Shown here in pieces: positions 4,230 to 21,735 of a stretch of 25,899 bases of DNA. Location: the IMG/VR virus record IMGVR_UViG_3300017646_000153, positions 1 through 25,899 of that record; one strand, 5' to 3'. The stretch's first letter is position 1. Every line of letters begins with the position of its first letter. Source of the DNA: a virus. Its lineage: Duplodnaviria > Caudoviricetes. Made by a program: the position numbers and the translations under genes. The notes beneath the pieces are model-generated. The model did no database searches and was not told the DNA's origin. It was given only the letters and a program-made list of their open reading frames with translations.

Positions 4230-4427
4230 ATGGCTGACAACCTTGAAGACGCGATCCGCGAAAACGCCCAGGGGCCGGCGAAGGCCGCGGGCGATTCCGG
4301 CTCGATGGAGCAGCACAAGCTTCCCGACCAGATCGCGGCGGACAAGTATCTGGCGTCGAAGGACGCCGCTAAGTCGAAGCGCCGCGGTCTGGTGTTCAAC
4401 AAGTTCGTTCCGCCGGGGGCAGAGTAG
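4230..4427 (+). CDS. Small phage protein, head-completion (gpW) position
   Basis: ATG 4230 after GGGAG; 65 aa; stop overlaps the portal GTG; function from synteny only. Confidence 0.6.
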   Translation: MADNLEDAIRENAQGPAKAAGDSGSMEQHKLPDQIAADKYLASKDAAKSKRRGLVFNKFVPPGAE

Positions 4428-5395
4428 TGCTGGGTTGGCTCACCAATCTGTTCGCGTCGAAAGCGCCACAGCCGGTTCCTGGCCGGGCGGTGCGGATCGT
4501 GCGCGCAAAGTACGACGCCGCGGCGACGAACGCCGACAACCGCCGGCATTGGTCGAACGCGGACGGTCTGTCCGCCAACGCCGCCAACAGCCCCGATGTA
4601 CGCCGCATTCTGCGGAACCGGGCCCGGTACGAAATCGCCAACAACAGTTACGCCCGCGGCATTGCGCTCACCTTGGCGAACGACGTGGTGGGCACCGGCC
4701 CCCGTTTGCAACTCCTCACGACAGACTCAGACGCCAACGGCCGGATCGAACAGGCGTTCATGCAATGGTCCAAGGCGGTTGGGCTGGCCGAGAAGCTCCG
4801 CACCATGCGGTTGGCTCGCGCTTCTGACGGCGAGGCGTTCGGCATCCTGACGAGCAACCCCGCGCTTGCGACCGCCATCCAGCTCGACCTGCGACTGGTC
4901 GAAGCGGACCAGGTCTGCACGCCCGACCTGTTCCGCGCCGATCCCAACGCCATCGACGGCATCGTGTTCGACGCCGCCGGCAACCCGACCGAATACCACG
5001 TCCTGCGGCAGCATCCAGGCGACATGTCGGCGAGCGGTGGCCGCGAATATGACCGAGTCGCTGCTGAATCGATGATCCACTGGTTCCGCGCCGACCGGCC
5101 GGGTCAAGCGCGGGGCATTCCCGATATCATGCCGGCGCTGCCGCTGTTCGCGCAGTTGCGGCGCTTCACGCTTGCGGTGCTGGCCGCCGCCGAAACGGCC
5201 GCTGACTTCGCCGGCATCCTCTACACCGACGCGCCGGCCAACGGCGAAGCGGACGCCGCCGAACCGTTCGAGCCGATCGAACTCGAAAAACGCGCGCTGC
5301 TGACGATGCCGGGCGGCTGGAAGATGAGCCAGATGGAAGCGGAGCAGCCGGCGTTGAGCAACCTAGGGCATTTTCAACTGGGGGCTGTGGCATGA
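4427..5395 (+). pseudogene. Lambda-family portal protein, 5' part (interrupted); reads into the element and stops at 5395
   Basis: YDAA, LRNRARYE..NN.YA, RPGQARG.P motifs; portal sequence ends at MEAEQPA and continues at 21184. Confidence 0.9.
5335..5377 (+). repeat. attL of inserted element (crossover CA at 5345-5346)
   Basis: GCGGAG-CA-GCCG-GCGTTGAG-N12-TTTTCAA; element-side arm is the inverted complement of the arm at 21153-21179. Confidence 0.8.
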
Positions 5396-5598
5396 GCACG
5401 GACGTTTCTATCAACGCAGAGCCGGCCGGAATTCCGTCCTCGGCAGCGGAAGCGTGGGCTGCGGTCTACATCGATGTTGCCGAGAAGCTCGACGCCGAAG
5501 CGCAACCAGCCGCAGGCGTCCAACCTTCGTCGAAGCAAGACGACAACGCTGCTGCCAACGCGCAACAAGTCGGAGAGGTCGAATGCCCAAGTACATAA
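5392..5598 (+). CDS. Small hypothetical protein, first gene of the element
   Basis: 68 aa; ATG overlaps truncated-portal TGA (ATGA); GGGGG upstream. Confidence 0.55.
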   Translation: MSTDVSINAEPAGIPSSAAEAWAAVYIDVAEKLDAEAQPAAGVQPSSKQDDNAAANAQQVGEVECPST

Positions 5599-5816
5599 CC
5601 TGTGAAGCAGATCTGAATTTCCCGGTGCCCAATGCGGAGCGAGTTGCGGCGCAGGTGCGAGCCATGTTCGACGGAAGACACCCGGTTACCGCCAGGGCGG
5701 TAGCGCAGGTGTTCGGCCTGAGCGAAGGAGCGATTGCGGCCGTGCTGCGCCGCGCCGAGAACTGCGGGATGGTGCGAAACATCGAATGCCGCGGGTGGAT
5801 TCCGTTGGAAACGTGA
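5583..5816 (+). CDS. Small winged-HTH protein (candidate excision/regulatory factor)
   Basis: ATG 5583 after GGAGAGG; 77 aa; HPVTARAVAQVFGLSEGAIAAVLRRAENCGMVR...GW resembles the recombinase C-terminus. Confidence 0.7.
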   Translation: MPKYITCEADLNFPVPNAERVAAQVRAMFDGRHPVTARAVAQVFGLSEGAIAAVLRRAENCGMVRNIECRGWIPLET

Positions 5817-5870
5817 TCGCCGGCATTGGCTCGCTCTGCGTCGCTAGTTCGTTTCCACGGAGGTGTCGGT

Positions 5871-8168
5871 ATGCCGATTGATCGCTTGGCTCTGCTGGAT
5901 TGGCTGCTCCCGCACTGCGAGCCGGGCACCGCGAGCATCATGTACCCGAAGGGAAAGAGCGACGGGCCAGGTTGGGCCAATGGCGAATCTGATGTCGCAC
6001 GGGCCATCGAGGCGTATCGGGCCGGCGCGTTGAGCGCCGAGCAGTTCTCGTCGATCACCCAGGACGGCAAGCAATACGTCATTGCCGGCGGCACTCGCCT
6101 CGGGCTTGTTCCGCACCGTGATGGTCTGGTCGCCCGCTTCTGCCTCGACTTCGATGACCATGAAGGCGACGGTGGCAATGTTCATCTGGCCCAGGCTGTT
6201 GACCGCTTCCTTGGCGCGGAGTCGATCAAGTTCACCAGCAAAGGCGGCAGGGGATTGCATTGCCACTATGCCTTGGCCGAGCCGATGTCGGTTGAGGCGT
6301 TCGTCGAGTGGGCCAAGGCCTGGGGATTCAACAAGCGCGGCGACATCGAGTGCTTCCCCAAGACGCCCAAGCGCTCGCAGATGTGGTTGCCGAACGAGCC
6401 CAATGAAAACGGTGGCGACGCCCATCGCGGTGGCGACTTTGAGTCGTGCCTGATTGCCGCACTACCGCCTGCGCCGTCGCGTCGCCTCAACAAGGCAACC
6501 CTCGACTTCCTGCGCGGCTTCGTTGCTCCAGGCTATCGCAACGACGCGCTCAACAAGGCGGCCTATCACTGCGCCAAGAATCGAATTGGCGAGACGGAAG
6601 CCCGCACGCTTTGCCTGCACGGTGCGGAACTCTGCGGCCTACTGGCCGACGAACCCGACCAGACGCGCACGACCTTCATTAGCGGTTACCACTCGGGCAG
6701 CGAGGAAGTCCGCCTGCGGCAACCGAAGGTCACTGAGGATCGTACTGCCGCGCCCGATCTGCTTCGCGGCCTGGGCTGCACCGACTTCGGCAATGCACAA
6801 CGGCTTGTGCGTCGCCACGGGCAGCACCTGCGGTACTGCTACGAGTTCAACCAGTGGCTCGCCTGGACCGGCACACATTGGTCGTTCGACCAGGCCGTTG
6901 CTGAACGCCATGCGAAAGACACCGTGCTGAGCATCTACTCGGAGGTGGGCCAGTTGGCCGACGCGAAGGACCGCGAAGCACTTCATCGGCATGCGTTGCT
7001 TTCGGAACAGGCGTCGAGGATCGCAGCCATGTTGTCGTTGGCCCGTAGCGAACCGGGCATTGCAATTCGTCCTGACGACCTCGACCGCGACACCTGGTTG
7101 CTGAACTGCACGAACGGGACCATCGATCTGACGACTGGTGAACTGCGCCCTCACCGGCAGGCTGACCTCATCACGCGCTGTTTGAGCTTCCCGTTCGACG
7201 CCGACGCAACATGCCCGCGGTGGGAGGCGTTCTTGAGCCGTATCATGGATGGCAACGCCGACCTGCTCGGCTTCATCCAGCGGGCCGTGGGGTACACCGT
7301 CACCGGCTCAACGGCCGAGCGCTGCATGTTCATCCTTCACGGCGGAGGCAAGAACGGAAAGACGGTCTTCCTCGAAGGGCTGCGGCTGTTGTTGGGCGAT
7401 GGCTATACCGCTCGCACGCCAACCCAAACCCTGCTGGCCAAGCGCGGCGACACCATTCCGAACGATGTGGCCCGCCTGCGCGGCGTCCGATTAGTGACAG
7501 CGAGTGAAACCGGCGACGGCAATCGGCTCGACGAAGCGCTCGTCAAGGATCTGTCCGGCGGCGACCGGATCGTCGCCCGTTTTATGCGCGGTGAATGGTT
7601 TGAGTTCACGCCACACTTCAAGATTTACCTCAGCACGAATTACCGGCCTCGCATATCGGGCACCGACGACGCCATCTGGGATCGACTGCGGCTTGTGCCA
7701 TTTCTGATCCGCATCCCCGAGGAAGAGCGCCGGCCGATGGAAACTATGCTGGGCGAGTTCGAAGTGGAACTCGCCGGCATCTGCAATTGGGCCATTCGCG
7801 GCTGTCTTGACTGGCAGCGCTACGGCATGGGCGAACCGCCCGAGGTGCGGATCGCGACCACCGAATACCGCGATGACATGGATGTGCTGGGCGACTTCCT
7901 GGCCGAGTGCTGCGTTGTGCATCCCGACGCCAGAGTGTCGAGCCAAGAGGTCTATGCCGAATACCGGCGGTGGGCGACCGACGCCGGTGAGCGCGTGCTG
8001 CCGCAGAAACGCTTTTCGCAATGGATGGAACATCGTGGTTCACAAGGCGGCTTCCGCAAACAGCACACCAAGCGCGGGAAGCAATGGCATGGACTCGGTC
8101 TGGCGTTCGAAACGGCGACGTTGGGCGTCCGCGAGCAGGACCAAGATGGTGACGGGACGAACTTTTGA
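5871..8168 (+). CDS. P4/D5-family primase-helicase (AEP primase + SF3 helicase)
   Basis: ATG 5871 after GGAGG; AEP motifs LDFD and SKGGRGLH; D5_N-like TDFGNAQR and LLNCTNGTIDL; Walker A GGGKNGKT; STNYRP. Confidence 0.92.
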   Translation: MPIDRLALLDWLLPHCEPGTASIMYPKGKSDGPGWANGESDVARAIEAYRAGALSAEQFSSITQDGKQYVIAGGTRLGLVPHRDGLVARFCLDFDDHEGDGGNVHLAQAVDRFLGAESIKFTSKGGRGLHCHYALAEPMSVEAFVEWAKAWGFNKRGDIECFPKTPKRSQMWLPNEPNENGGDAHRGGDFESCLIAALPPAPSRRLNKATLDFLRGFVAPGYRNDALNKAAYHCAKNRIGETEARTLCLHGAELCGLLADEPDQTRTTFISGYHSGSEEVRLRQPKVTEDRTAAPDLLRGLGCTDFGNAQRLVRRHGQHLRYCYEFNQWLAWTGTHWSFDQAVAERHAKDTVLSIYSEVGQLADAKDREALHRHALLSEQASRIAAMLSLARSEPGIAIRPDDLDRDTWLLNCTNGTIDLTTGELRPHRQADLITRCLSFPFDADATCPRWEAFLSRIMDGNADLLGFIQRAVGYTVTGSTAERCMFILHGGGKNGKTVFLEGLRLLLGDGYTARTPTQTLLAKRGDTIPNDVARLRGVRLVTASETGDGNRLDEALVKDLSGGDRIVARFMRGEWFEFTPHFKIYLSTNYRPRISGTDDAIWDRLRLVPFLIRIPEEERRPMETMLGEFEVELAGICNWAIRGCLDWQRYGMGEPPEVRIATTEYRDDMDVLGDFLAECCVVHPDARVSSQEVYAEYRRWATDAGERVLPQKRFSQWMEHRGSQGGFRKQHTKRGKQWHGLGLAFETATLGVREQDQDGDGTNF

Positions 8169-8409
8169 CCCGTCACCTGCCGTCACCGTGCGCACGAATC
8201 GAAACGGCAGATTACCGTCACTCCCGTCACGCAGGCGGTCGGTGGGTCGGTTCGGGTGACGCGTGACGGGTAGTGACGGCACTACGGGGTTAATCGCTTC
8301 AAGGCCCAAACATGAACATCAATACGCATAACGCGCTCATGCACACACGCGAGAAGGTCACTATGGGCCGTCATCGCTCAGCAGCCGTCACCTGCCGTCA
8401 TCCCGTCAC
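8149..8409. repeat. CCGTCAC/GTGACGG iteron cluster, probable replication origin
   Basis: Nine exact heptamers (8149, 8170, 8180, 8215, 8224, 8263, 8273, 8385, 8403) plus variants in both orientations around an AT-richer stretch at ~8285-8340. Confidence 0.75.
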
Positions 8410-8522
8410 CGCGCCGACGGCATAGGTACTTCCCCGCGAAGGTCTTTTCCCGAGGCGTGCGGGAACAGCCACCATATCGAGCAGAGTTTGTTTTTGTGGT
8501 CCGAACAACGGAAAGGCGTGTC

Positions 8523-9281
8523 ATGAACCAAGTTACGCACCAGAACGCCACAGCGGGCCGCACAGGCGACGACATGGCCAAGATTCTGGCCGACGCCGAA
8601 GCGCTCTGCCGTGCCGTCGCCGGTCGCGACCTGGAGGGCGTGCCCCTCTATCTCGTTCCGCAATCGATCCTGCCGCCGGAATGCGGCTCGGGCGACCACT
8701 GCTACGCCTACACGCTGGGTTCGCTCGACCTCTATCTACGCGACCACATCCCCGGCTATCGCGGCCGCGGGCCGTGCGTGGTCATCAACGACATCGCCCT
8801 GGCCGAGAACTATGCCGGCGAAGACCTGGAGTACTTCACGCAGACGACGCTGATCCATGAATTGGCTCACGTATTGGATCGGCCGGCGGTGTACGAAGAC
8901 CGCACCGGCGTCGATCCGAACAAGTTGAAGTTCGAAGCGCTCGTCGTCGCGCACATCACCGCCAAGCCCATACGAGAGGAAATTCCCCGCTACCACGGGC
9001 ACGAAGCCAAGTTCATTCGCATCTGCCTGCACCTCTGCTATCGCGCCCAGCAACTCGGCTTCGACATTTATCACGTTGCGGTGTGCGCCGGCTACCGCTA
9101 TGGGCTGTCGCACGCGAGCCACTATCTCGAAGCCCTGGGCGACGAGCCGGCCCGCTGCATGGGCATGCTCTTCCGCGACATTCTCGCGACCGAGCCACCG
9201 CCCGCATTCTCGTCGCTGTGGTGCGACGACTTCATTGCCTACCACAAACGGTTTCCCCTTCAGAAAGGAAGCGACCTATGA
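8523..9281 (+). CDS. HExxH zinc metalloprotease-like protein (SprT-like)
   Basis: LIHELAHVL followed by HGHEAKF; ATG 8523 after GAAAGG. Confidence 0.65.
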   Translation: MNQVTHQNATAGRTGDDMAKILADAEALCRAVAGRDLEGVPLYLVPQSILPPECGSGDHCYAYTLGSLDLYLRDHIPGYRGRGPCVVINDIALAENYAGEDLEYFTQTTLIHELAHVLDRPAVYEDRTGVDPNKLKFEALVVAHITAKPIREEIPRYHGHEAKFIRICLHLCYRAQQLGFDIYHVAVCAGYRYGLSHASHYLEALGDEPARCMGMLFRDILATEPPPAFSSLWCDDFIAYHKRFPLQKGSDL

Positions 9282-9991
9282 GTGTTACTTCGTTCTTCGA
9301 GAAGTTCGTTGGCTTGCAGCAGCAGCGGGCGCAGACGGCCATCGCCACCTACCGCGACCTCGTCGCCGGCATTGCGACCGGCGAGGAGCCCAACCCGGCC
9401 GAGGTCGAACGTTTGTTGCCGGAAGCGGGCATGTCGCTTGATGACCTACGCCGCGACGTGGAGCACTTTCAACACCGCATGGCGCTCAAAGCGGCGGTCG
9501 CAGCGATGCCGGCGTTCGAAGCCGAGCGCAGCACCCTGGAAGAGAAGATCGCGGCCGCGAACAAGTTGCTGGAAGCGGCCGAAAAGCAGCACCGCGAAAC
9601 GACGCGACCGCTGTATCTTCGTCTGGAAGAGGTCAAGCAGGGCATTAACCAAGGCACCGACGCCACGATGCAATTGGTCTACACCTGCGAAGCGCCCGAC
9701 CTGCGCGGCGAAATGGATTCGCTCGATGCGGAATACGACCGCCTGAGTAGAGAGATTCAGGATCTGGAAGGTCGCGCTTTCCGCACCGACCGCCAAGCGC
9801 AGGAAGAGCACTACGAGGCGGATCACCAGTTGGTCTTGTCGGACACTCAGCGCGGTCATGAACGAGCCAAACGCACCGAACAGCAGGCCACGGCCATGCA
9901 CCGCGAAGTCAGCAGCATGAAGCGCAAGCTGGCCGACCTCGACAAGCAGCGCACGCAACTCGAGCAGCGGATGCGGAAGTCCGACATCTGA
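9278..9991 (+). CDS. Coiled-coil hypothetical protein (237 aa)
   Basis: ATG 9278 after AAAGGAAG, ATGA overlap; E/Q/R/A-rich helical sequence. Confidence 0.75.
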   Translation: MSVTSFFEKFVGLQQQRAQTAIATYRDLVAGIATGEEPNPAEVERLLPEAGMSLDDLRRDVEHFQHRMALKAAVAAMPAFEAERSTLEEKIAAANKLLEAAEKQHRETTRPLYLRLEEVKQGINQGTDATMQLVYTCEAPDLRGEMDSLDAEYDRLSREIQDLEGRAFRTDRQAQEEHYEADHQLVLSDTQRGHERAKRTEQQATAMHREVSSMKRKLADLDKQRTQLEQRMRKSDI

Positions 9992-10454: not shown

Positions 10455-11402
10455 ATGACGGCACTTCACGAGAACGGGAAGGCATCGAAAGCCAACGGTT
10501 CGTCGCAATGCGTCCGCATTCTGAAGAATACCCGCGATGCTGGGATCCAAATGCCAGATTACGCGCTTTGGCAGGGAGATGCAGGTGCGTTTTTAGACGC
10601 CCTTCCTTTAGAACCACTTTTTGACCTTGTGGTTACATCGCCACCGTACAACATTGGAAAGCCCTACGAAAAGCGTGCCGAGCTGGAGGACTATCTGCTT
10701 TGGCAGTCAACGATCATCAACAAGATTGTGCCTCGGCTAAAGCCGACGGGAAGTCTTTGCTGGCAGGTCGGGAACTATGTCGAGGATGGAGAAATCCTGC
10801 CGCTGGACATTGAGTTTGCGCCGATCTTCAGGGCGCATAAACTTCAACTCCGCAACCGGATCGTCTGGCACTTCGGCCACGGGCTGCACACCAAGCGGCG
10901 ATTCTCCGGCCGATATGAAGTCGTAATGTGGTACACCAAGAGCAAGGACTACACCTTCAACCTGGACGCCGTCCGTATCCCATCGAAGTACCCGGGGAAG
11001 CGGCACTTCAAAGGACCACGGGCTGGCGAGCTTTCGGGAAATCCATTGGGGAAGAATCCTGAAGATGTGTGGTTTATCCCCAACTGCAAGTCCAACCATG
11101 TTGAAAAGACCGAACATCCCTGCCAATTTCCTGTCGGTTTAATTGAGCGGTTGGTTCTCGCACTCACAAACGCTGGTGGGTTGGTGTTCGATCCGTTCGC
11201 AGGGGTTGCCTCCGCCGGCGTGGCGGCAGCACTCTACGGCCGACGGTTCTGGGGCTGCGAGATTGCCAAAGAGTACGTGCAAATCGGACGCGATCGGCTT
11301 ATCGAGTCCCTTTCAGGAAGCGTAAAATACCGGCCACACGATAAAGAGATTTACGACCACAATCAGAGCAACCTGTCGCGGAAGCCTTCTGAATGGTCGT
11401 GA
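10455..11402 (+). CDS. Beta-class N4-C/N6-A DNA methyltransferase
   Basis: TSPPYN catalytic motif precedes HPCQFP and VFDPFAG SAM-binding motif. Confidence 0.93.
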   Translation: MTALHENGKASKANGSSQCVRILKNTRDAGIQMPDYALWQGDAGAFLDALPLEPLFDLVVTSPPYNIGKPYEKRAELEDYLLWQSTIINKIVPRLKPTGSLCWQVGNYVEDGEILPLDIEFAPIFRAHKLQLRNRIVWHFGHGLHTKRRFSGRYEVVMWYTKSKDYTFNLDAVRIPSKYPGKRHFKGPRAGELSGNPLGKNPEDVWFIPNCKSNHVEKTEHPCQFPVGLIERLVLALTNAGGLVFDPFAGVASAGVAAALYGRRFWGCEIAKEYVQIGRDRLIESLSGSVKYRPHDKEIYDHNQSNLSRKPSEWS

Positions 11403-11414
11403 CAGGGGTGCTAC

Positions 11415-11876
11415 ATGAAAGCAAATGTCTATGGCCACCACTTCGGGGACAAGATCATTCCTGAGGGGCTCATCAATGAAGCCAAAGCAGCGATCGAGTC
11501 CTGCTCTGTCGTGCCGCAGAAAAAATCCTCCAAAAGAATCAAGGAAGCCATTTTGGAATCGTTGGCAGAGAAGGGGTGGCCAGGCGAGGTGACGTTGGAT
11601 ACCGCCTCAAAGATCAGCATCACGTCGCGCAAGGAAAGCATTGGGCTTTGCTTCCAAACTGGGAACATGAGCCGGATGTACGCTGATCTCCTCAAGCTAC
11701 AAGCGGTCTACCTGCGGGGCTCGATAGACGCTGCGATATTTATCTTGCCCGAAGACGAGTGTGCCAAGATCCTTGGCGACAACATAGCAAACTGCGACCG
11801 CCTTCGGCGCGAGCTGGAAATATTTGATCGGGCAATCACCGTCCCCCTTGCCGTAATCGGAATTGAACAATCATGA
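11415..11876 (+). CDS. BglII/BstYI-like restriction-endonuclease-fold protein, probably inactive
   Basis: L..KGW, IGLCFQTGN...YADLLKL and VIGIE pattern; expected catalytic D and E appear replaced. Confidence 0.6.
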   Translation: MKANVYGHHFGDKIIPEGLINEAKAAIESCSVVPQKKSSKRIKEAILESLAEKGWPGEVTLDTASKISITSRKESIGLCFQTGNMSRMYADLLKLQAVYLRGSIDAAIFILPEDECAKILGDNIANCDRLRRELEIFDRAITVPLAVIGIEQS

Positions 11877-13159: not shown

Positions 13160-14966
13160 GATTGCCTATGAAGCCGATACGCGCCGGGCGATTCTGAGCT
13201 GGGACGCCTCGGAAAGTGCTGCCGAATGGGTGCGGCTGCTGAAGCGCGTCGTATCTGACCATACGGACGAATACACCCAGCTTTCTGCGGAAGCAGTTGC
13301 TTTGCCGTGGTGGACATTCTTGTCGGCCAGGTCGCAAGTAAAGCAAGTGTTGGGTGGCTACAAGGTTCAGCTCAAGGTTGGGGAGCTGGCTGCGGAGCTG
13401 CTCAAGCAGTCAAACGCTAATGAGGTGTCCTATGCCCAGGCCAAGGCCGCAACGGCGGCCTCAACGGGCGGGATTGTCGAGCGCCTAGCGGCGAAAGGCT
13501 TCACGCGAACTCTTACAAATGAGCAGTTACGGAATGTTGGAAAGCTAGCCGGGCTAAGTGCCGCGGCGACGTTTTCCGTGCCGGGTGCCGGAAAGACGAC
13601 CGAAGCCCTGGCGCACTTCTTTCTGCGTGCTGGGGACGACGACAAGCTCCTGGTCATCGCCCCGAAAAATGCATTTGGTGCGTGGGATGAGCAGATAGAG
13701 ATATGCGTACCGGGATCGGCTGGGTTCACTCGACTTCGGGGCGGACGGGATCGCATTGAGCAGCTATTGGATGAAAACCCGCGGTACATGCTGATTACTT
13801 ATCAGCAATTGCCGCGAGTACGGGACCTGATTGCCAAGCATATCGCCAGTCATCGCGTCTTCGTGTATCTGGATGAAAGTCATCGAATCAAGAGCGGAAA
13901 GCAGTCGGTGACTGCGGAGAACGTCCTGAGCCTGTCGCATTTGCCGGTGGGCAAGCTGGTGATGTCGGGAACTCCGATGCCGCAAGCGGATTCTGATCTG
14001 ATTCCGCAGTTCTCGTTCCTTTACCCGGAAATGCCGGTTGATGTGGTGACGGTCGCCGATCTCATTAAGCCGGTCTACGTCCGCACGACAAAGCGTGAGC
14101 TGAACCTGCCGCCGGTGGATCGGCGTTTGATCGAGCTGGACATGTCGCCGGTGCAGGCGAAGCTCTACAGCCTGATGCGGTTTGATGTGGCGAAGGCTGC
14201 CGAACAGGCACTGAGTGTGCGGAGCCGACTCTCATTCCGGCGGCTCGGCAGGAGCATCATGCGGCTGCTGCAAGTGGTCTCGAATCCCTCATTGCTCGCG
14301 CGCGAGGTCGGTTTCGCCCATGAGGGCATGCTCGGTGAACTGTTAGAGGAAGGCCGGGCGCCGAAGGTCGAATATGCGTGTTCGCGTGCCCGGCAACTGG
14401 CAAGGGAAGGCCGAAAGTCGCTGATCTGGACATCGTTCGTGGCCAATGTCGAGCTGATTTCTGAGCGGCTCTCGGACATCGGGGCGGTCTTCATTCACGG
14501 CGGCGTGGAAGCTGGGGATGAAGACGATGAAGACACGCGGGAAGGGAAAATCAAGGCATTCCATGACGATGCTGAGATCCGCGTGATGGTGGCCAATCCG
14601 GCAGCGGCGAGCGAGGGAATCAGCCTGCACACTGTTTGCCACAACGCGATCTATGTTGATCGGACGTTCAATGCTGCACACTACCTGCAATCAGAGGATC
14701 GGATTCACCGCCTCGGCTTGCAGCCGGATCAGGTGCCGGTGATTGAAATCCTGGAGTGCCGGTCAACCATCGATCAAATCGTTCGCACACGTCTCGGCTT
14801 CAAAATCGACCGAATGAGCGCGGTGCTGGATGATCCGTCGCTCAGCGTCGATCCGATTCCCTTTGATCCGGCGCGGTTTGAGGAGTCGGACGATTATGGG
14901 GCGGGGGTCACGGAAGATGATATCGCGGCAATCATTAGCGGCCTTAAAAATGGGGTGGCAAGATGA
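13152..14966 (+). CDS. SNF2-family SF2 helicase/ATPase
   Basis: GAGKT, LDESH, MSGTP, SEGISL, QSEDRIHRLG motifs. Confidence 0.92.
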   Translation: MLRIAYEADTRRAILSWDASESAAEWVRLLKRVVSDHTDEYTQLSAEAVALPWWTFLSARSQVKQVLGGYKVQLKVGELAAELLKQSNANEVSYAQAKAATAASTGGIVERLAAKGFTRTLTNEQLRNVGKLAGLSAAATFSVPGAGKTTEALAHFFLRAGDDDKLLVIAPKNAFGAWDEQIEICVPGSAGFTRLRGGRDRIEQLLDENPRYMLITYQQLPRVRDLIAKHIASHRVFVYLDESHRIKSGKQSVTAENVLSLSHLPVGKLVMSGTPMPQADSDLIPQFSFLYPEMPVDVVTVADLIKPVYVRTTKRELNLPPVDRRLIELDMSPVQAKLYSLMRFDVAKAAEQALSVRSRLSFRRLGRSIMRLLQVVSNPSLLAREVGFAHEGMLGELLEEGRAPKVEYACSRARQLAREGRKSLIWTSFVANVELISERLSDIGAVFIHGGVEAGDEDDEDTREGKIKAFHDDAEIRVMVANPAAASEGISLHTVCHNAIYVDRTFNAAHYLQSEDRIHRLGLQPDQVPVIEILECRSTIDQIVRTRLGFKIDRMSAVLDDPSLSVDPIPFDPARFEESDDYGAGVTEDDIAAIISGLKNGVAR

Positions 14967-15826
14967 TGAGCCTTTCCCCAGGCCTGCTTTACTCCGCACA
15001 GAAGCTGGTGGACACGGTTGCAAACAACCGGATGCACCGCGACGAGTTCCTGTTCTCGTTCCGCACGGTACTAGTATCCCCGGCCAATGGGGTACTTACG
15101 CTCTCTACGCGTTGCGGCTGGATCAATATCGATGAGGAGTTCGCCCTTGATGTCACGGAGATGGGACGGAAGGTCCAATCGCTGCTGACGGTAGAGGACA
15201 AACTACGGCAACAGATCAAGGACTTCATCCAGTCAGTTCAACCGGCCTGGGCAAAGCTGCTCCCCAGGGGGCGATTGGAATCCTTGCCGGTCATGCCGTC
15301 AGACGCCAGACAATGCTTTACGGAGGCTGGCCTCGCAGTTAACCCGCCAACCGATGAAGTTATAGCATGGTGGGATGATCTCGCTGCCGCTGCTCGCGGG
15401 CGGCTTGCTGATTACCTCGCGAAAGTCGGTCGTGATGGCGAGCGCTGCTCGATGCGGTATGAACAGGAACGCGTGGGACGGCGCCCAATCTGGAAGTCAA
15501 TCGAGTCGAATCTGAGTGGCTACGACCTGCTTTCGCTGGTCACGCGGGAGGATACTTCGACGCTGCAAATCGAGGTGAAAGCATCGGAGCAACCGGTTGA
15601 TTCGGCGTCGATGCATATCACGCGGACCGAATGGGAGGTCGCCTCCACCGGCGGTCGGTATGTCTTTCACCTGTGGTCAATGACAGATAGTGGCAAGCGA
15701 CTGGCCATCCTCGCGCCTCATGATGTTGCCGGGCATGTGCCGACTAATTCCGGCGTCGGCCGGTGGGAAAGTGTGGAAATCCCCTTTCGGGCATTTGAGG
15801 ATTCGTTTCGAGAAGTAACGCTCTAA
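14963..15826 (+). CDS. DUF3883/NOV_C-like PD-(D/E)xK nuclease domain protein
   Basis: C-terminal G..GE...GYDLLS...IEVKAS...ITRTEW. Confidence 0.8.
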   Translation: MMSLSPGLLYSAQKLVDTVANNRMHRDEFLFSFRTVLVSPANGVLTLSTRCGWINIDEEFALDVTEMGRKVQSLLTVEDKLRQQIKDFIQSVQPAWAKLLPRGRLESLPVMPSDARQCFTEAGLAVNPPTDEVIAWWDDLAAAARGRLADYLAKVGRDGERCSMRYEQERVGRRPIWKSIESNLSGYDLLSLVTREDTSTLQIEVKASEQPVDSASMHITRTEWEVASTGGRYVFHLWSMTDSGKRLAILAPHDVAGHVPTNSGVGRWESVEIPFRAFEDSFREVTL

Positions 15827-15868: not shown

Positions 15869-16990
15869 CTAACGGGTCGCCCAAGAAGTAAGACGGGCAA
15901 TGCAATCGGCACAAAGCTTGTTCGCGTTTTCGAGATAGGGGACGTCGATGGCGGCAAGCTGGCCAAGGGCGAGGTTGTAAACATTCACGTTTGAGTCAAG
16001 GTAGCGCTGGTCGACATAGCCGCGGTTGTGAACATGAACATTGCGGCGGATGACAAACTCGACAACCTGCGCGAATGCGTTGGGGATGGCAGGATCGGCA
16101 AGAACGACGCCGGTGTGGTTCAGGATTTGTAACACGTCTTTGATGTAAAAGAGTTTTAGTTGTCGCTCGATGATGGCATCCTGAAACTGGTCAAGGTCGT
16201 CGTAGTCGGCAAACTCGGTCAATGCGACCTTGTCGCTCCTGCCAAACCGTGCGATGAGTTTCAGGAAATCGTTACGCAGGGCAACACGAACGATGTCGAA
16301 GACGGCGGCATCAAATGCGGTCATCAACAAGAGGAAGCCCTGTCGGTAAAGGTTTACTTCGGCTTCCGGAAGCGTGAGCCTGGCAGCGAACCTCATTCGC
16401 TCGAAGAAATCTAACGCCCTTCGTAATGCGTTATTCCTGCCAGTAAGGCGTCGGCACTCAACCTGCGTAATAGCATGGCGGATGACTCCGCGGATATGCT
16501 CGTCGTCTTCTTCTGTCCGTTCTAAAGGATATCCTTCCTCAAGGGCTTCGATGTGTTTATGGAATGATCGCTCGACGAGAGCCTCTCTTTCTTCAATGGT
16601 GGGAGACCCTGAGAGATTCGCATCAATGTATTGAAGCCAGTCGCCGAATAACTCGAATTTCTCTGGCGGGATGGAGTTGGCGAAGGTGTCTGCCTCGAAT
16701 GCATCGATTTGCTGGTCCTGCTGTTGGGCCAAGTCCTTGAGCTTCGGCTCGAGCTGATCGATGATCGCCAACAAAGCGGCTACCTCACTGGCGTCAAAGG
16801 GTTGACCTTTCCGCTCTGGCGGTCGTTGAAAAAACTGCGTGACGCCATTCATGTTGAGAAGGTAGGTAACGTGCTTAGCGGCATCGTCGTTGATTTGCGT
16901 GTATTCGTCCGCGGTGACGATAAAGCGACGGATATTGGCCTGTTCGTCGAGGAAACGTGTCTGGATTTCAGCAGCGGTCTTGTGAGACAT
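15869..16990 (-). CDS. HEPN-like domain protein (putative RNase effector)
   Basis: C-terminal RRNVHVHNRG (RxxxxH); start uncertain (16990, 17011 or 17062). Confidence 0.6.
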   Translation of the reverse strand: MSHKTAAEIQTRFLDEQANIRRFIVTADEYTQINDDAAKHVTYLLNMNGVTQFFQRPPERKGQPFDASEVAALLAIIDQLEPKLKDLAQQQDQQIDAFEADTFANSIPPEKFELFGDWLQYIDANLSGSPTIEEREALVERSFHKHIEALEEGYPLERTEEDDEHIRGVIRHAITQVECRRLTGRNNALRRALDFFERMRFAARLTLPEAEVNLYRQGFLLLMTAFDAAVFDIVRVALRNDFLKLIARFGRSDKVALTEFADYDDLDQFQDAIIERQLKLFYIKDVLQILNHTGVVLADPAIPNAFAQVVEFVIRRNVHVHNRGYVDQRYLDSNVNVYNLALGQLAAIDVPYLENANKLCADCIARLTSWATR

Positions 16991-17154
16991 ATAGGTGAAA
17001 CCTGTCCTCATTTTGTGTCGTGAGCATCGCGCGATGCCATCTTCAGTTCGAGGCGATGCCACTACTTTTTATCGCTCCGGCCGGCATCGGGACAGCATGC
17101 CGAGAAAACTGGCGTAGCGCACGCCCCAATAAACTTCTGCTGAAATTCTGGCCA

Positions 17155-17194
17155 ACCGCGCTTGATGTGTTCGCGCCCGCATGGCTCATGTGTG
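17155..17194 (+). promoter_or_regulatory. Promoter-like motif shared with helper prophage
   Basis: ACCGCGCTTGATGT...TGGCTCATGTGTG, matching 1340-1379 (minus). Confidence 0.55.
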
Positions 17195-17252
17195 ACTGTC
17201 GCCTGCGGATTGGCCGCGGGCGGAAACGAACCTCGATGCGAAAGGACGAACG

Positions 17253-17636
17253 ATGAAGACCACGAAGACCGCGACGAAGAAGGCGACCAAGTCCGCGAAG
17301 CCCGCCAAGAAGGAAAAGGCGAAGGCGAGCATGCCGGCCAAGGCGACGCCCGCCAAGACGGGCAAAGCCGCGAGGGCATCGAATCCCGCCAAGACGGATG
17401 CCAAGAAGCTGAGCCAGATCGAGGCGGCAATCAAGGTGCTGGCCAAAGCGGGCGAACCCATGAACTGTAAGGCGATGGTCGAGGCGATGACCAAGCAGGG
17501 ATTGTGGACCAGCCCCGGCGGCGCGACGCCCGACGCGACCTTGTACAGCTCGATCCTGCGGGACATTAACACGAAGGGGAAGGACGCCCGCTTCAAGAAG
17601 ACGGATCGCGGCCATTTCACCCTGAACGGCAAGTAG
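17253..17636 (+). CDS. Lys/Ala-rich protein with C-terminal winged HTH (HARE-HTH-like), element copy
   Basis: GGATPDATLYSSILRDI...RFKKTDRGHF aligns without gaps to 164-598. Confidence 0.8.
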   Translation: MKTTKTATKKATKSAKPAKKEKAKASMPAKATPAKTGKAARASNPAKTDAKKLSQIEAAIKVLAKAGEPMNCKAMVEAMTKQGLWTSPGGATPDATLYSSILRDINTKGKDARFKKTDRGHFTLNGK

Positions 17637-17646
17637 GAGGTGGCCC

Positions 17647-17889
17647 ATGAACGACGAACGACAAACCGGCGCGGTGGACCAGGAAGCGTTCGAGAAGGTC
17701 ATCCGCGACAACCTTTCGCCCGAGGCCGTCGCAACGATCATCGCGTTCCTTCAGCCGGCGGCGTTTTACCGGCCCGCCAACCAGGAGGCGATGCAAGCGC
17801 TTCTCCAGGTCGAATGGTTCGCCAACACGCTGACCGACATGCTCGGCGTCGAAGAGCACAACCGCCTGATGGAAGAGCTAGGCCTATAG
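17647..17889 (+). CDS. Hypothetical protein (80 aa)
   Basis: Strong RBS GGAGGT; directly follows 17636. Confidence 0.7.
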   Translation: MNDERQTGAVDQEAFEKVIRDNLSPEAVATIIAFLQPAAFYRPANQEAMQALLQVEWFANTLTDMLGVEEHNRLMEELGL

Positions 17890-17915
17890 CGGCCTACGCC
17901 CCACCACGACGCCAC

Positions 17916-17944
17916 AGAGGCCGCACATCGCGGCCTCTTCTTTC
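17916..17944 (+). terminator. Probable intrinsic terminator upstream of the recombinase
   Basis: AGAGGCCGC-ACATC-GCGGCCTCT followed by TCTTTC. Confidence 0.55.
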
Positions 17945-18102
17945 GGTTGGACCGTTCGTTCGACCGCGCCCCGAACGCCCGTGCGGGCCACCCGTGCGCC
18001 CACAACACCCGCGCTGGAGGCCTGCGGCCAAGGCGAGGTAACTGTGTGGTCGGCGCGGTACGTCGCCCGCCAAACGAACGTCCACGAACCCGAGGAGAAC
18101 CC

Positions 18103-19917
18103 ATGAGCAAGAACGGAACCAAGCCGGCGGTCGGCTATATCCGCATGAGCACCGACAAGCAGGAAGATAGCCCGGCCCGGCAACGCCGCGACATCGAAGC
18201 GCTGGCCGAACGCCTTGGCTACCGCACTATTTCCTGGTACGAAGACCACGGCCTGACCGGCACCGAGTCTGCCAACCGGCCCGAGTTCCGCCGGCTATTG
18301 AACAATGCCAAGGGCGGAAAGTTTCAGGCGGTGCTGCTGTCGGAACAAAGCCGCATGTCGCGCGAGGACGTTTTCGACGCGATGGTGCATTGGAAACTGC
18401 TTCGCGACGCTGGCGTGAAGATCGTCACCTGCCAGCGCGGCGAGCTCGACTTCAGCAATCTCGGCGGCGTCATCACGGCCATCGTCGATCAGTACGGTGC
18501 CCGCGATGAGTCGGTGAAGCTGGCGCAGCGCGTCGCAAGCGGCCAGCGTTTGAAAGCGAAGCAGGGGCAGCGAATTGGCGGGATCGTGTTCGCCTACGAC
18601 CGTGATGTCTTTGACGACGCCGGCAAGCATGTGAAGCGGATTCATTTCCGCGACCGGTTTCGCAAGCCACCGACCTGGCGAACCAAGCTCGTTCCTTCCG
18701 ACGACCACAACGCCGTCGCCGGCGTCCAATGGGCGTTCGACTCCATCCGACAGGGCCAATCGATCGGTTACGTCATGAAAGGGCTGAATAAACGCGGCCT
18801 GACGACGACGCACGACAATCCGTTCACGTTTACCACCACGATCAACCTGCTAACCAATCCTGCTTACGCCGGCGTGCTGCGGGTCGGAAAGTACTCGCGC
18901 GGCAAGTTCTCGTCGGTTGCGGAAGACGGAATGATCGTGGTCGAGAACGCTCACGAGCCGATAGTCGATCCAGAAGTGTTCGAGCAAGTGCAGCAGGTTT
19001 TGCTCGACCGCAAGAGCCGAACGCCGCGGGCCAGGCCTGAACAATATGTGTTGAGCCGCATCGTGACTTGCCAGCACTGCGGCATTCGCATGTACGGCGT
19101 GCGACGCAGCAAACGCGACAAGCACGTTGCGTTCTATCAATGCAATCCGTCTCCCGGCGTCATGCCTTACAGTCCCAATTGTCCGCACCCGGCCGTCCGC
19201 GCTGACCGGCTCGAAGCGTTCGTGCTGGAGATGATTCGTGAGCGCTTGCTCGATACCGGCGTGGAGCAGCAGATCCGCGACGCCATTCTGCGGGCGAAGC
19301 GGAAAGACGCCACGAAGGTTTCGCGCGACGAACGCCGGCTGGGCGACCTACGCCGCAAGATTGATCGCGGCACCGAAAACCTGGCGTTGGCGGACCGCGA
19401 CGACTTCCTCGCCATATCGAAACTGCTCACCCGCTGGCGTGAGGAGGAAGCCGAGTTGGTCGAACAGATCGAGCGTCGCGGCCGCGAACTTGAGCCGCTA
19501 CCCGACGCCCTGCGTGTGCTGGCCCGGCTATCCGAAGTTCCTGGCAACCTCGCCAAGGCGGATCGCGCCAAGCTCGCTCATGCAATTCGCCAGACGGTGG
19601 CATCGATCAGCATTGGCGTCCGCGACGCGACCTCGGGTGAGATTGCCTACCGCGAGTTGCATGGCGAGCTTCAGTTCCACGAGGCATTCGGCCTGCGGCC
19701 CATCGCCATTCCCGACGAAGTCATTGGCCAGCGACGCATCTGGCGCGAGATTGGCGAGTTGGCTCGTCGCGCGAAGCACCCCATTCGGCTCGCCGACGTT
19801 TGCGAACTCATCGGCTCGTCATGCCCGTCTCGCGCTTGCCACAACATGCGACGGGCGGAAGCGGCCGGCTTGGTGCGGAAGGTCGGAAAGAACGGCGGTT
19901 GGGTTTCTGCAAAGTAG
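18103..19917 (+). CDS. Large serine recombinase (integrase) with C-terminal winged HTH
   Basis: ATG 18103 after GAGGAG; catalytic YIRMST; SRMSR; LTNPAYAG and HEPIVD recombinase motifs; Zn ribbon CQHC...C...C; coiled coil. Confidence 0.95.
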   Translation: MSKNGTKPAVGYIRMSTDKQEDSPARQRRDIEALAERLGYRTISWYEDHGLTGTESANRPEFRRLLNNAKGGKFQAVLLSEQSRMSREDVFDAMVHWKLLRDAGVKIVTCQRGELDFSNLGGVITAIVDQYGARDESVKLAQRVASGQRLKAKQGQRIGGIVFAYDRDVFDDAGKHVKRIHFRDRFRKPPTWRTKLVPSDDHNAVAGVQWAFDSIRQGQSIGYVMKGLNKRGLTTTHDNPFTFTTTINLLTNPAYAGVLRVGKYSRGKFSSVAEDGMIVVENAHEPIVDPEVFEQVQQVLLDRKSRTPRARPEQYVLSRIVTCQHCGIRMYGVRRSKRDKHVAFYQCNPSPGVMPYSPNCPHPAVRADRLEAFVLEMIRERLLDTGVEQQIRDAILRAKRKDATKVSRDERRLGDLRRKIDRGTENLALADRDDFLAISKLLTRWREEEAELVEQIERRGRELEPLPDALRVLARLSEVPGNLAKADRAKLAHAIRQTVASISIGVRDATSGEIAYRELHGELQFHEAFGLRPIAIPDEVIGQRRIWREIGELARRAKHPIRLADVCELIGSSCPSRACHNMRRAEAAGLVRKVGKNGGWVSAK

Positions 19918-19935
19918 ATGCAAAATGCGCATCGC

Positions 19936-20220
19936 CTAGTTGTCGCTAAGCTTTTTGAACATCTCGACGCCCGTCATTGGCACTTGGTCAAGCAGCACGT
20001 AAGACTTTTCATTGAAGTTCAGGAAGTGCCGAATGTCGTCGGCACTTTCCGTCCCTCCGAATACATGCTGATCCTGCTGATCGCTAGGGATTTTTTCTGC
20101 GAAGAATCTGGAAGCGGCGTCGCTATCTGTAAAGAACGCGGGCAGTTGCCCGTGTTTTTCGGTTAAGGCTCCGAAAACGCTGTCGCCGGCTTTGTTGGTC
20201 AGAAAGAAAACCTTCTTCAT
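19936..20220 (-). CDS. Hypothetical protein (94 aa)
   Basis: ATG with AAGGG upstream; convergent with recombinase. Confidence 0.55.
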   Translation of the reverse strand: MKKVFFLTNKAGDSVFGALTEKHGQLPAFFTDSDAASRFFAEKIPSDQQDQHVFGGTESADDIRHFLNFNEKSYVLLDQVPMTGVEMFKKLSDN

Positions 20221-20255
20221 GATCTAACCCTTTAGAGAATGCATTAGTTTCGGCA

Positions 20256-21032
20256 CTACTTGAACCATTTGAGAAACGGTTCACAGGCGTTCGACCAGAT
20301 GTCTTCAGTACGCCACTTCGGCCCGCTCGTCCCGTTCATAGACAACAGAAACCCAAACTCTACGCTCACCCAGGTCCAATCGATCTGCTTGACGCCCTGA
20401 ATCCTGGCTCCTAGTTCGGCGAGCGACCGGCAATCGGACGCCTTCGGGATTAACCTCTCAGAATCCGAATGATCATGAACCAGCGATAAGCGGGACTCGT
20501 CAAATGCGAAGTATAACTTTTGTCGCGGAAGCGCCTCGAGCAACTTGCCTGCATCTTCATCCTTTTCCTTCTTTCCCGGCTCGGGCGGGCTCATGGTCCC
20601 CGCGCTCACAATAACGTCGACTGGTCTGCTCGCTACTAGCTGTGCCTTCGCTGCATACGAGTCAAACGAGCCATCTTTGAGAGCAGCGAAGAATTCATTC
20701 CAAATCCAATTTGGACGAACGATCCACGACTTGCCGACGCCGGTGGTCTTAAAAAACTCGCTGGCTGTCGATCCGATCCCCTTCTCAAAGCAAATGCCAG
20801 CAAAAAGGTCGCCACAGGGTTCGGCAGTCTTCGCCACATACTTGCCATAGTGGTACGCCGGATCATCTGACCCAGGACAGATCCACCAAAACGTGTTGTC
20901 AGGGCGGAATCGATTGAATGGCACCAGCGAAATGCTCTCGCCGAATTCCGGCCGCGAGTAGTCACGCAAGGCGTGCGCAAGGTCGCTCGAAGTGGCGTGC
21001 GATGTAGCGGGCTGCGATGGTGCGTCCGTCAT
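20256..21032 (-). CDS. Hypothetical cargo protein (Trp-rich)
   Basis: Long ORF with globular composition; start 21032 or 21053; no recognised motif. Confidence 0.65.
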   Translation of the reverse strand: MTDAPSQPATSHATSSDLAHALRDYSRPEFGESISLVPFNRFRPDNTFWWICPGSDDPAYHYGKYVAKTAEPCGDLFAGICFEKGIGSTASEFFKTTGVGKSWIVRPNWIWNEFFAALKDGSFDSYAAKAQLVASRPVDVIVSAGTMSPPEPGKKEKDEDAGKLLEALPRQKLYFAFDESRLSLVHDHSDSERLIPKASDCRSLAELGARIQGVKQIDWTWVSVEFGFLLSMNGTSGPKWRTEDIWSNACEPFLKWFK

Positions 21033-21152
21033 GTCGGTCAAGCCTGTTGGCACATTCGTTGGAACTGAAAACGATGCGCGACCAATCTTATCAGGTGTGA
21101 TTCGTTGCGACTATCTAGGCCGGCGGATGATTCACAGGCAATAGCGACGCAT

Positions 21153-21195
21153 TTGAAAACGATCCAAGTCTCTCAACGCAGTACAACCCGCGACC
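21153..21195 (+). repeat. attR of inserted element (crossover CA at 21184-21185)
   Basis: TTGAAAA-N12-CTCAACGC-AGTA-CA-ACCCGCGACC; portal frame resumes here. Confidence 0.8.
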
Positions 21196-21735
21196 ACCTA
21201 CGGCGAATTCAAGCGCGAGCTGCTGAACGAAATCTGCCGCTGCCTCAACATGCCGTACAACATCGCGGCCTGTAACAGCAGCGGATACAACTACGCCTCC
21301 GGTCGCCTCGACCACCAGACTTATTTCAAGGCGATCCGCGTCGAGCAGTCGCACCTCGAATGCGTAGTGCTGGATCGCATCCTCGCTGCCTGGCTCGATG
21401 AGGCGGTTCTCATCCCCGGCCTCTTTCCGTCGGGCCTGCCGCCGATTGCCGAATGGCCGCACCAGTGGTTCTGGGACGGGCACGAACACGTCGATCCCGC
21501 CAAGGAAGCTTCGGCGCAGGCAACGCGCCTCGCGAACCACACCACCACGCTCGCCGACGAATACGCGCGCCGCGGCCAGGACTGGGAATCGCAGATTCGC
21601 CAGCGAGCCAAGGAAATGGCGCTCTTGAAAGAGCTTGGCATCGCACCGGTGGCGGCGCAGCCCGCGCGCCCGTCTGCCGAGGAGTCTGACAACGAACCGT
21701 CCGACGAAGAAACGGAGACCGCCGATGCCGCATGA
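21184..21735 (+). pseudogene. Lambda-family portal protein, 3' part
   Basis: QPATTYGEFKRELLNEICRCLNMPY...NYASGRL...HVDPAKEA; in-frame TGA at 21154 and no start before 21250. Confidence 0.9.

What the first reader, a model, noticed from the sequence alone, without database searches (positions are those of the whole stretch)
4427..21735. Satellite-like element integrated in, and reversibly disabling, its helper's portal gene
Seen: portal breaks at ...MEAEQ (5346) and resumes 15,839 bp later as QPATTYGEFKRE...; removal gives an uninterrupted 489-aa ORF. The insert has a serine integrase, primase-helicase, iterons and defence-like cargo but no recognisable virion genes, and supplies no replacement 5' end (in-frame TGA 21154). 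Known: portal is essential for packaging; P4 and PICI satellites normally integrate in host genes with tyrosine integrases; serine-recombinase elements such as skin in sigK act as excision switches. Inference: the helper can make virions only after the element excises, so the parasite gates the helper's lytic cycle.
Basis: partly seen in the sequence, partly recalled or inferred. Interest (0 to 1): 0.95.

Follow-up and report, generated by a model that had tools for sequence, protein, structure and literature searches.

The report
Serine-integrase satellite splits helper's portal gene
A 15.8-kb mobile element sits exactly inside the DNA-packaging portal gene of a prophage and belongs to a family that repeatedly hits this gene; it is likely a parasite that pops out to ride the phage's particles, a serine-integrase counterpart of the helper-embedded satellites already described in enterobacteria.

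Summary
Observation confirmed to the base. A 15,839-bp element splits the portal gene at a CA core. Removing it gives an open 489-aa gene that matches intact relatives of 90-91% identity, and the rebuilt attP is an inverted repeat.

It belongs to a family, mostly in Planctomycetota. Three integrase clades hit three different portal sites, and I mapped 13 complete elements (9.9-19 kb). All 13 carry one copy of a ~90-bp helper-phage motif (candidate cos packaging site) and a small conserved gene; 12 carry an unknown HExxH plus coiled-coil gene pair.

The concept is published: HE-PICIs (Tommasini 2023) split late genes, portal included, with tyrosine integrases in Enterobacteriaceae. This is a serine-integrase counterpart with another gene order, not a member. 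This scan reported the arrangement earlier on other DNA (e1-5853038, e1-5853047).

Strict gating is unproven. No excision circle was seen. The empty site in related runs may be a sibling prophage. 3 of 5 related genomes hold a second intact portal, and about a quarter of relatives sit at non-portal sites. New variant of a known kind; interest 0.5.

The parts
1662..3929 (+). helper large terminase (gpA-type nuclease domain)
   Evidence: PF20454 E 6e-29; 86-88% identical to L006/L007/L008
4230..4427 (+). helper 65-aa gene before portal (head-completion position; function inferred from position only)
   Evidence: 89-94% identical in intact relatives; no PHROG hit
4427..5346 (+). portal gene, 5' part (codons 1-307); the frame runs on to TGA 5393-5395
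   Evidence: PF05136 E 1e-44
5310..5381 (+). attL: B arm, core CA at 5345-5346, P' arm 5347-5381
5392..5598 (+). 68-aa gene with a conserved P-x3-A-x-AW-x2-V-x2-D-x2-EK helix; its ATG overlaps the broken portal's stop; candidate excision factor (inferred, untested)
   Evidence: 13 of 13 complete elements; stop/start overlap in 2 of 13, 5 nt gap in a third; no family or Atlas hit
5583..5816 (+). 77-aa helix-turn-helix protein
   Evidence: weak MarR_2 E 0.008 and HTH phrog E 0.013; homologues in G001, G003, G024, G026
5871..8168 (+). primase-helicase, D5/P4 family
   Evidence: PF08706 E 2e-35; TIGR01613 E 4e-80
8149..8409 (.). cluster of 11 GTGACGG/CCGTCAY repeats in both orientations; likely replication origin
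   Evidence: role inferred from position after the primase
8420..8508 (+). ~90-bp motif shared with helper phages; candidate cos/packaging site (a late promoter is the alternative)
   Evidence: HMM from 8 helper copies: E 9e-21 here, 13 of 13 elements, 0 of 65 shuffles; precedes a ParB-methylase gene in 63 of 70 viral loci
8523..9281 (+). 252-aa HExxH protein, predicted zincin-like metalloprotease
   Evidence: H112, E113, H116 invariant in 15 sequences; best VIA Z 7.4, rmsd 4.2, 152 aligned, top rows are zincins; 12 of 13 elements
9278..9991 (+). 237-aa coiled-coil hairpin protein of constant length; function unknown, capsid-size or packaging role hypothesised
   Evidence: model pLDDT 94; only generic coiled-coil matches; 12 of 13 elements
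10455..11876 (+). cargo: N6/N4 methylase and BglII/BamHI-like endonuclease
   Evidence: PF01555, PF09195; PADLOC MTase_II, REase_II
11873..15826 (+). cargo: 428-aa unknown, SNF2 helicase, NOV_C/DUF3883-type protein; defence-like, no complete named system
   Evidence: cargo GC 0.56 against 0.62-0.65 for core and helper
15869..17062 (-). cargo: 397-aa unknown protein
   Evidence: no Pfam, PHROG, PADLOC or NCBIfam hit
17154..17889 (+). module shared with the helper: promoter-like motif, HARE-HTH gene (17253-17636), 80-aa gene (17647-17889)
   Evidence: repeats I1 and I2; PF05066; 80-aa protein 88% identical to helper copies in L007/L008; motif in 5 of 13 elements
18103..19917 (+). large serine integrase, 604 aa, open frame, catalytic S16 invariant
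   Evidence: PF00239, PF07508, PF13408; alignments A1, A2
19936..21053 (-). cargo: two unknown genes (94 and 265 aa)
   Evidence: no family hit
21149..21220 (+). attR: P arm 21149-21183, core CA at 21184-21185, B' arm
21184..21735 (+). portal gene, 3' part; in-frame TGA at 21154 upstream
   Evidence: phrog_21 E 3e-15
21725..25012 (+). helper protease-capsid fusion, head decoration, head-tail joining and one further conserved gene
   Evidence: PF25209, PF25138; phrog_4523, phrog_122; 69-93% identical to intact relatives

Best explanation
The element is a serine-integrase insert in the portal gene of a prophage and is likely a helper-embedded satellite that uses that phage family for transfer. 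Shown: exact att sites, a split portal with no replacement sequence, co-orientation of all core genes with the portal, a primase with nearby repeats, and a single copy of a helper cis motif. Inferred, in order: (1) on induction the element is copied with the helper; (2) helper late transcription runs through the broken portal into the 68-aa gene, HTH and primase; (3) the integrase, with a directionality factor (candidate: the 68-aa protein), recombines attL and attR, which restores the 489-aa portal and releases a circle; (4) the circle replicates from its own origin and is cut and packaged at its cos-like site by the helper terminase, perhaps aided by the HExxH and coiled-coil proteins; (5) in a new host it integrates into a resident prophage's portal or, less often, a secondary site. 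This portal copy cannot work until excision, but the gate may be leaky where a sibling prophage supplies portal in trans. The host is probably a planctomycete, judged from the names of relatives.
For: Exact in-frame join and palindromic attP. Intact relatives read through the same codon. Three integrase clades each hit their own portal site: codon 307 in 15 of 21 rows (window included), codon 332 in 15 of 22 plus one remnant, about codon 408 in 5 of 6; SH-aLRT 97, 100, 100 (sites). Joins restore an open portal frame in all 13 complete elements. The helper motif occurs in 13 of 13 elements and 0 of 65 shuffles, and precedes the ParB-methylase gene in 63 of 70 viral loci. It opens with AGGTACT, GGGTCCT or TGGTTCC (43, 12, 12 of 69); lambda has GGGTCCT 30 nt before its right end. 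Close helper relatives have neck, major tail and tape-measure genes. The same logic was shown experimentally for HE-PICI 11capE (PMC10111431). An empty site identical to the window over 278 nt upstream occurs in run X2.
Against: No attP joint in 4 runs laid over the whole element or at the left junction in 2 further runs. No attP in viral contigs: 0 hits and 2 unrelated hits. A sibling haplotype with 18 differences in 4627-4801 is present in X1 and X2 and could account for the empty site. 3 of 5 genomes with a complete split portal hold another intact portal. 10 of 43 rows in the two main clades sit at non-portal sequence and 2 are undetermined. The motif's spacing differs from lambda (36-38 against 45 nt to the GGG block), and no cultured phage matched it. 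The stop/start overlap at the left end holds in only 2 of 13 elements. No known capsid-remodelling or terminase-redirecting gene was recognised. The helper's integrase, replication and tail modules lie outside the contig.
Confidence: 0.7

Rival explanations
1. It is an ordinary trans-acting satellite that uses the portal gene only as a conserved, multicopy landing site. The split portal is collateral damage and sibling prophages supply particles, so excision does not gate anything in practice.
For: Genomes hold up to 5 intact portal genes of this family (G005 5, G014 4, G009 3), and 3 of 5 genomes with a complete split portal have a second intact one. About a quarter of relatives sit off target. 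A sibling with the same left end sits at non-portal sequence in 4 of 4 runs.
Against: Three clades use three different portal sites and all core genes are co-oriented with the portal, which points to selection for this position. G001 and G007 show no intact portal (draft genomes, so absence is not shown).
Confidence: 0.3
2. It is a defence island that inactivates resident prophages for the host's benefit and is not packaged; it spreads by other means or only vertically.
For: Low-GC restriction-modification and helicase cargo here; variable cargo in relatives, including type I RM-like genes and cas-like genes in L170. No attP seen.
Against: All 13 elements keep the helper's cis motif at a fixed position after the replication region, and 12 keep the same unknown gene pair. 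One relative (G030) carries its own capsid gene instead. No conjugation or relaxase family among the 17 ORFs scanned.
Confidence: 0.12
3. It is a regulatory switch that serves the host or the phage, like skin in sigK, holding the prophage silent until a signal triggers excision.
For: Same enzyme class and the same split-without-replacement geometry as skin or SPbeta (recalled knowledge).
Against: 68 of 80 close portal loci are intact, 8 end at a contig end, and none is split at this site, so the phage family does not need the switch. The element has its own primase, origin-like repeats and off-target copies, which a domesticated switch would not need.
Confidence: 0.05
4. The junctions are an assembly artefact.
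For: The window is one metagenomic contig. No listed run contig bridges a junction by 31 nt on both sides.
Against: The two inner arms, 15.8 kb apart, form an inverted repeat centred on the shared CA. Twelve other complete elements repeat the pattern, five of them at the same codon.
Confidence: 0.01

Closest known systems
Helper-embedded PICIs (HE-PICIs), Tommasini, Mageeney and Williams 2023, PMC10111431 (read parts 1-6 of 8 of the main text, abstract to discussion; supplements not read)
   Same: 10-20 kb element inside and co-oriented with a prophage late gene, including three portal sites; no replacement sequence; primase and origin; integrase subclades respect sites; off-target copies; a shared cos segment presumed to serve packaging.
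   Different: Tyrosine integrases only, Enterobacteriaceae only ('serine' and 'Planctomyc' occur 0 times in the text). Integrase and AlpA come first there; here the integrase is at the far end and no AlpA was found. Off-target share is 28 of 519 there against 10 of 43 here. The HExxH, coiled-coil and 68-aa genes hit no family.
Gram-negative cos PICIs such as EcCICFT073 (PMC9026076, passages read)
   Same: The satellite carries a helper-like cos (cosQ and cosN) for packaging by the helper terminase.
   Different: They sit in host genes and use Rpp or TerS-like redirectors. No such gene was recognised here, and the cos role of this motif is only inferred.
Gene-splitting large serine recombinase elements: skin in sigK, SPbeta in spsM, phi10403S in comK (recalled; LSR target survey PMC10083194, passages read)
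   Same: Large serine integrase, 2-bp core, palindromic attP, target gene restored on excision.
   Different: The target is a phage structural gene, not a host gene, and the likely beneficiary is the element. The LSR survey's main text does not mention phage portal targets (its supplements were not read).
P4-like satellites and cf-PICIs (PMC10085698, passages read)
   Same: P4-family primase; small size; defence cargo.
   Different: No Sid, Psu or delta match found; no own capsid, portal or terminase in this element.

Membership tests
HE-PICI | [quoted passage not shown] | tested here: met
HE-PICI | No replacement sequence for the split gene | tested here: met
   TGA 5393 and TGA 21154; no portal HMM hit inside any of 13 elements
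HE-PICI | Tyrosine integrase of the 11capE clade | tested here: not met
   large serine integrase, PF00239/PF07508/PF13408
HE-PICI | AlpA next to the integrase | tested here: not met
   no Phage_AlpA hit among 17 element ORFs at E 0.01; the 77-aa HTH lies at the other end
HE-PICI | Zone order Integration, Bro, Replication, Late | tested here: not met
   order is small gene, replication, motif, HExxH, coiled coil, cargo, HARE-HTH, integrase
HE-PICI | Primase with a downstream origin; size 10-20 kb | tested here: met
   (origin role inferred)
HE-PICI | Doubled TGTATTGC motif around attP | not tested
   motif described; not searched here
HE-PICI | Integrase subclades respect late-gene sites | tested here: met
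   three clades, three portal sites (quick tree)
HE-PICI | Precise excision after helper induction | not testable with these tools
   empty site present but ambiguous, no attP joint
cos-packaged PICI | Functional cos shared with the helper | tested here: inconclusive
   motif shared in 13 of 13; cosQ-like start but other spacing than lambda; no phage termini available
P4-like satellite | Sid/Psu capsid-size module | tested here: inconclusive
   coiled-coil protein gives only generic matches
cf-PICI | Own capsid, portal and terminase genes | tested here: not met
   none in this element; one relative, G030, has a capsid gene only
LSR regulatory switch (skin type) | Split gene serves a host process | tested here: not met
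   target is a phage portal
LSR regulatory switch (skin type) | Cognate recombination directionality factor | not tested
   candidate 5392-5598; no complex prediction could be run

The most novel reading that the evidence does not exclude
A separate satellite family, outside P4, PICI, cf-PICI and PLE, evolved helper-embedding independently with serine integrases. It packages through a copy of the helper's cos, remodels helper heads with a new metalloprotease plus coiled-coil module, and times its excision by a new 68-aa directionality factor read from the helper's broken portal transcript.
Probability: 0.25. Interest if true: 0.75.

Novelty: new variant of a known kind. Interest (0 to 1): 0.5.

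Why it matters
It would show that embedding in a helper's late gene arose at least twice, with unrelated recombinase families in distant phyla, so late-gene tropism is a selected strategy and not a quirk of one tyrosine-integrase clade. It defines a satellite family in Planctomycetota, whose phages are barely studied, with three conserved proteins of unknown function and a candidate packaging site to test. It also gives three integrase clades with mapped attB and attP and a candidate directionality factor, which are useful as tools. Named isolate genomes carry members (for example L141), so the tests can be done in culture.

Tried and rejected
Excision circle: no attP joint in X1-X4 over 3500-23000, or as a loose end at the left junction in X1, X2, X6, X7. 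Contigs drop rare forms, so this is not absence. Two attP patterns against viral contigs gave 0 hits and 2 hits without any element gene; the patterns matched 5 of 6 and 4 of 5 of the rebuilt sites they were drawn from.

Empty site as proof of excision: rejected. A sibling haplotype co-occurs in X1 and X2, the X3 joint carries L006-type differences and the X6 end is L007-type.

Misassembly: rejected.

Sid-like scaffold: no match; Foldseek gave no hit at E 0.001 and VIA's best Z of 12.4 is a generic hairpin; Atlas gave nothing usable. The HExxH protein has no Foldseek hit at E 0.001.

Motif as a proven cos: no match in 50,697 phage records. 4 of 70 motif loci lie within 80 nt of a contig end, too few to call termini.

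Translational coupling as a family rule: only 2 of 13 overlap.

Helper promoter driving the integrase: doubtful, because a terminator-like hairpin at 17916-17938 lies between.

Integrase-68-aa binding: the complex predictor was not available, so this is untested.

Symmetry-only junction picking gave wrong joins for 5 of 13 elements and was replaced by portal-alignment-guided joins. The careful tree did not finish; the quick tree was used.

Literature searches for a serine-integrase or planctomycete version found only the HE-PICI paper, its preprint and papers that cite it; the library lacks most subscription journals.
Full report
Observation. The window holds the head module of a prophage: terminase 1662-3929, portal, protease-capsid fusion 21725-23794, decoration and head-tail genes. 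The portal frame starts at 4427, reaches CA at 5345-5346 and leaves portal sequence, ending 16 codons later at TGA 5393. Portal sequence resumes at CA 21184-21185, with an in-frame TGA at 21154. Removing 15,839 bp gives 489 aa with one terminal stop. The rebuilt attP has 22 of 33 symmetric positions around CA, and 0 of 200,000 random joins reach that; palindromic attP sites with a 2-bp core are the rule for large serine integrases (recalled). Intact relatives of 90-91% identity read through the same codon, L007 and L008 with the exact attB. Of 80 close portal loci, 68 are intact, 8 end at a contig end and 4 are broken elsewhere, 2 of them by related elements; none is split at this site.

Anatomy. 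From attL: a 68-aa gene whose ATG overlaps the broken portal's stop, a 77-aa HTH, a D5/P4-type primase-helicase (TIGR01613 E 4e-80), 11 short repeats at 8149-8409, a ~90-bp motif at 8420-8508, a 252-aa HExxH protein and a 237-aa coiled coil. Then low-GC cargo (0.56 against 0.62-0.65): methylase, BglII-like endonuclease, a 428-aa unknown, SNF2 helicase, NOV_C protein and a 397-aa unknown. Then a HARE-HTH gene, an 80-aa gene, the 604-aa integrase, two unknown genes and attR. None of 17 element ORFs scanned hits a virion family.

A family. Integrase relatives were fetched from genomes, metagenomes and viral contigs; nearly all named ones are Planctomycetota, so the host is probably one. I built a quick tree from 68 rows, leaving out fragments under 420 aa and most duplicate loci, with site labels assigned by me. 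One clade (SH-aLRT 97) has 21 rows: 15 at portal codon 307 with core CA (the window, 12 clear cases, one truncated and one divergent portal), 5 with the same P arm followed by non-portal sequence, and 1 too short to tell. A second clade (100) has 22 rows: 15 at codon 332 with core AA, 1 portal remnant, 5 off target, 1 undetermined. A third (100) has 5 of 6 rows at about codon 408. A neighbouring clade of 3 rows includes one followed by a capsid 3' part. Thirteen elements, the window included (G027 and G028 are near-duplicates), were complete on one contig: 6 at site 307, 5 at 332, 2 at 408, 9.9-19.0 kb, median 16.4. Each join restores an open portal frame; G024 is cut by its contig end. The 68-aa gene is in 13 of 13; the HExxH and coiled-coil pair is in 12 of 13, and G030 carries a capsid gene instead; all lie on the portal's strand. 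The replication gene varies: the window's primase finds a tblastn hit in 4 of 13.

Evidence for dependence on the helper. An HMM built from 8 motif copies in helper loci with intact portals finds one copy in each of 13 elements (E 9e-21 to 8e-4; weakest in G027/G028), on the same strand, and nothing in 65 shuffles. In 63 of 70 viral loci found by a pattern for the motif, the next gene is a ParB-methylase of the helper's packaging region; 7 were unassigned. The block 36-38 nt upstream of the searched pattern reads AGGTACT, GGGTCCT or TGGTTCC in 43, 12 and 12 of 69 loci. Lambda has GGGTCCT starting 30 nt before its right end; that this heptamer is cosQ is recalled, and PMC4669245 says only that the 7-bp cosQ is highly conserved (passages). 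The spacing to the following GGG block is 45 nt in lambda, so the likeness is partial, and no cultured phage matched. A packaging site is the best reading; a late promoter is the alternative. Either way it is a helper signal kept by all three clades. Close helper relatives have neck, major tail and tape-measure genes, so the family looks like real tailed phage; this helper's own tail, replication and integration modules lie beyond the contig.

Evidence on excision. Runs from three samples cover all 30 bins of the element region. The empty-site joint 5344-21184 appears in X1 (depth 12.9) and X2 (4.8), which are one sample and may be the source. In X2 the contig is identical to the window over 5069-5346, whereas the four closest fetched relatives differ at 10-12 of 150 nt. 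But X1 and X2 also hold a variant with 18 differences in 4627-4801, and joints near 21623 point to a second form, so the empty site may belong to a sibling prophage. No attP joint was seen, and attP patterns found nothing relevant in viral contigs. Excision is therefore plausible and unproven.

Limits of the gate. Of 5 genomes with a complete split portal, 3 (G003, G008, G024) hold another intact portal; other genomes hold up to 5. Whether those portals can substitute is unknown. Off-target copies are 10 of 43 rows in the two main clades, and a sibling with the same left end sits at non-portal sequence in 4 of 4 runs. The stop/start overlap that would couple the 68-aa gene to helper late transcription holds in 2 of 13 elements, with a 5-nt gap in a third.

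Unknown proteins. The coiled coil folds confidently (pLDDT 94, pTM 0.55) but matches only generic hairpins. The HExxH protein (pLDDT 83) has zincins as its top structural rows at Z up to 7.4, which is a middling score. The 68-aa protein has no hit. Its role as directionality factor rests on size, conservation and position near attL; directionality factors share no common fold (PMC11795197, start of abstract only), and binding was not tested.

Comparison. [quoted passage not shown] It shows excision after induction for one, finds 28 off-target copies, and states that the regulation serves the satellite. All use tyrosine integrases and come from Enterobacteriaceae. The present element works like an HE-PICI but fails membership on integrase class, AlpA and gene order. 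Searches for a serine-integrase or planctomycete version found none in this library. PMC11389934, PMC10083194, PMC9026076 and PMC10085698 were read as passages only. The scan itself reported a 10.4-kb capsid-bearing element of this kind on other DNA; G030, analysed here, has that size and content.

Verdict. Real, precisely mapped and part of a sizeable family. The central idea is already in print, so 0.95 is too high. What this case adds is convergence with serine integrases in a distant phylum, the capsid-less majority type with three conserved unknown genes, and a helper-derived cis motif in every complete member. New variant of a known kind; interest 0.5.

Noticed in passing
L170:670-8542 and 10790-20708: A relative (integrase 85% identical but truncated; coiled-coil gene matches at 88-89% DNA identity) has cas3-like and other type I-U-looking genes as cargo, next to a 73-repeat CRISPR array and further cas-like genes. 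Gene names are my reading of the ORF starts, not a family scan. One of 72 spacers matches 23-27 of 36 nt in 15 helper-family loci.
   Followed up: partly
window 17154-17195 and 1333-1379 (- strand): A promoter-like motif precedes the small reverse-strand genes of helpers (64 distinct copies, all on the minus strand) and the HARE-HTH gene of 5 of 13 elements; helper and element share the HARE-HTH and 80-aa genes.
   Followed up: partly
window 5345-5566, runs X1, X2, X6, X7: A sibling element about 90% identical at its left end is joined to non-portal sequence at the same CA; the flank was not found in 250 loci.
   Followed up: partly
L139:11602, L143, L188, L109:9863-10001: Related integrases abut a capsid gene 3' part (L139; less clear in L143, L188). 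In L109 a truncated integrase abuts a broken 65-aa head gene, with a portal 3' part further on. These may be further late-gene sites or decayed composites.
   Followed up: no
L047:11236 and L072:1453: Two further portal genes are broken at about codons 429 and 359 by sequence unlike the three att arms.
   Followed up: no
L089:2624-4352, L132:2239-4161, L220:4985-6805: Some relatives have a protease-capsid gene upstream of the integrase; in G030 (L220) it lies inside the element and the HExxH/coiled-coil pair is missing, suggesting two alternative head strategies.
   Followed up: partly
window 25023-25899: After the head-tail genes come two genes with signal-peptide-like starts (190 aa, and one with a CxxC motif), shared with L082, L084 and L026, where L021 has neck and tail genes.
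   Followed up: partly
window 11873-15826: A three-gene unit (428-aa unknown, SNF2 helicase, NOV_C nuclease-like) follows a restriction-modification pair; it fits no complete PADLOC system and may be an undescribed defence system.
   Followed up: no
G005, G009, G014: Single planctomycete genomes hold 3 to 5 intact portal genes of this phage family, so several related prophages per cell seem common.
   Followed up: no
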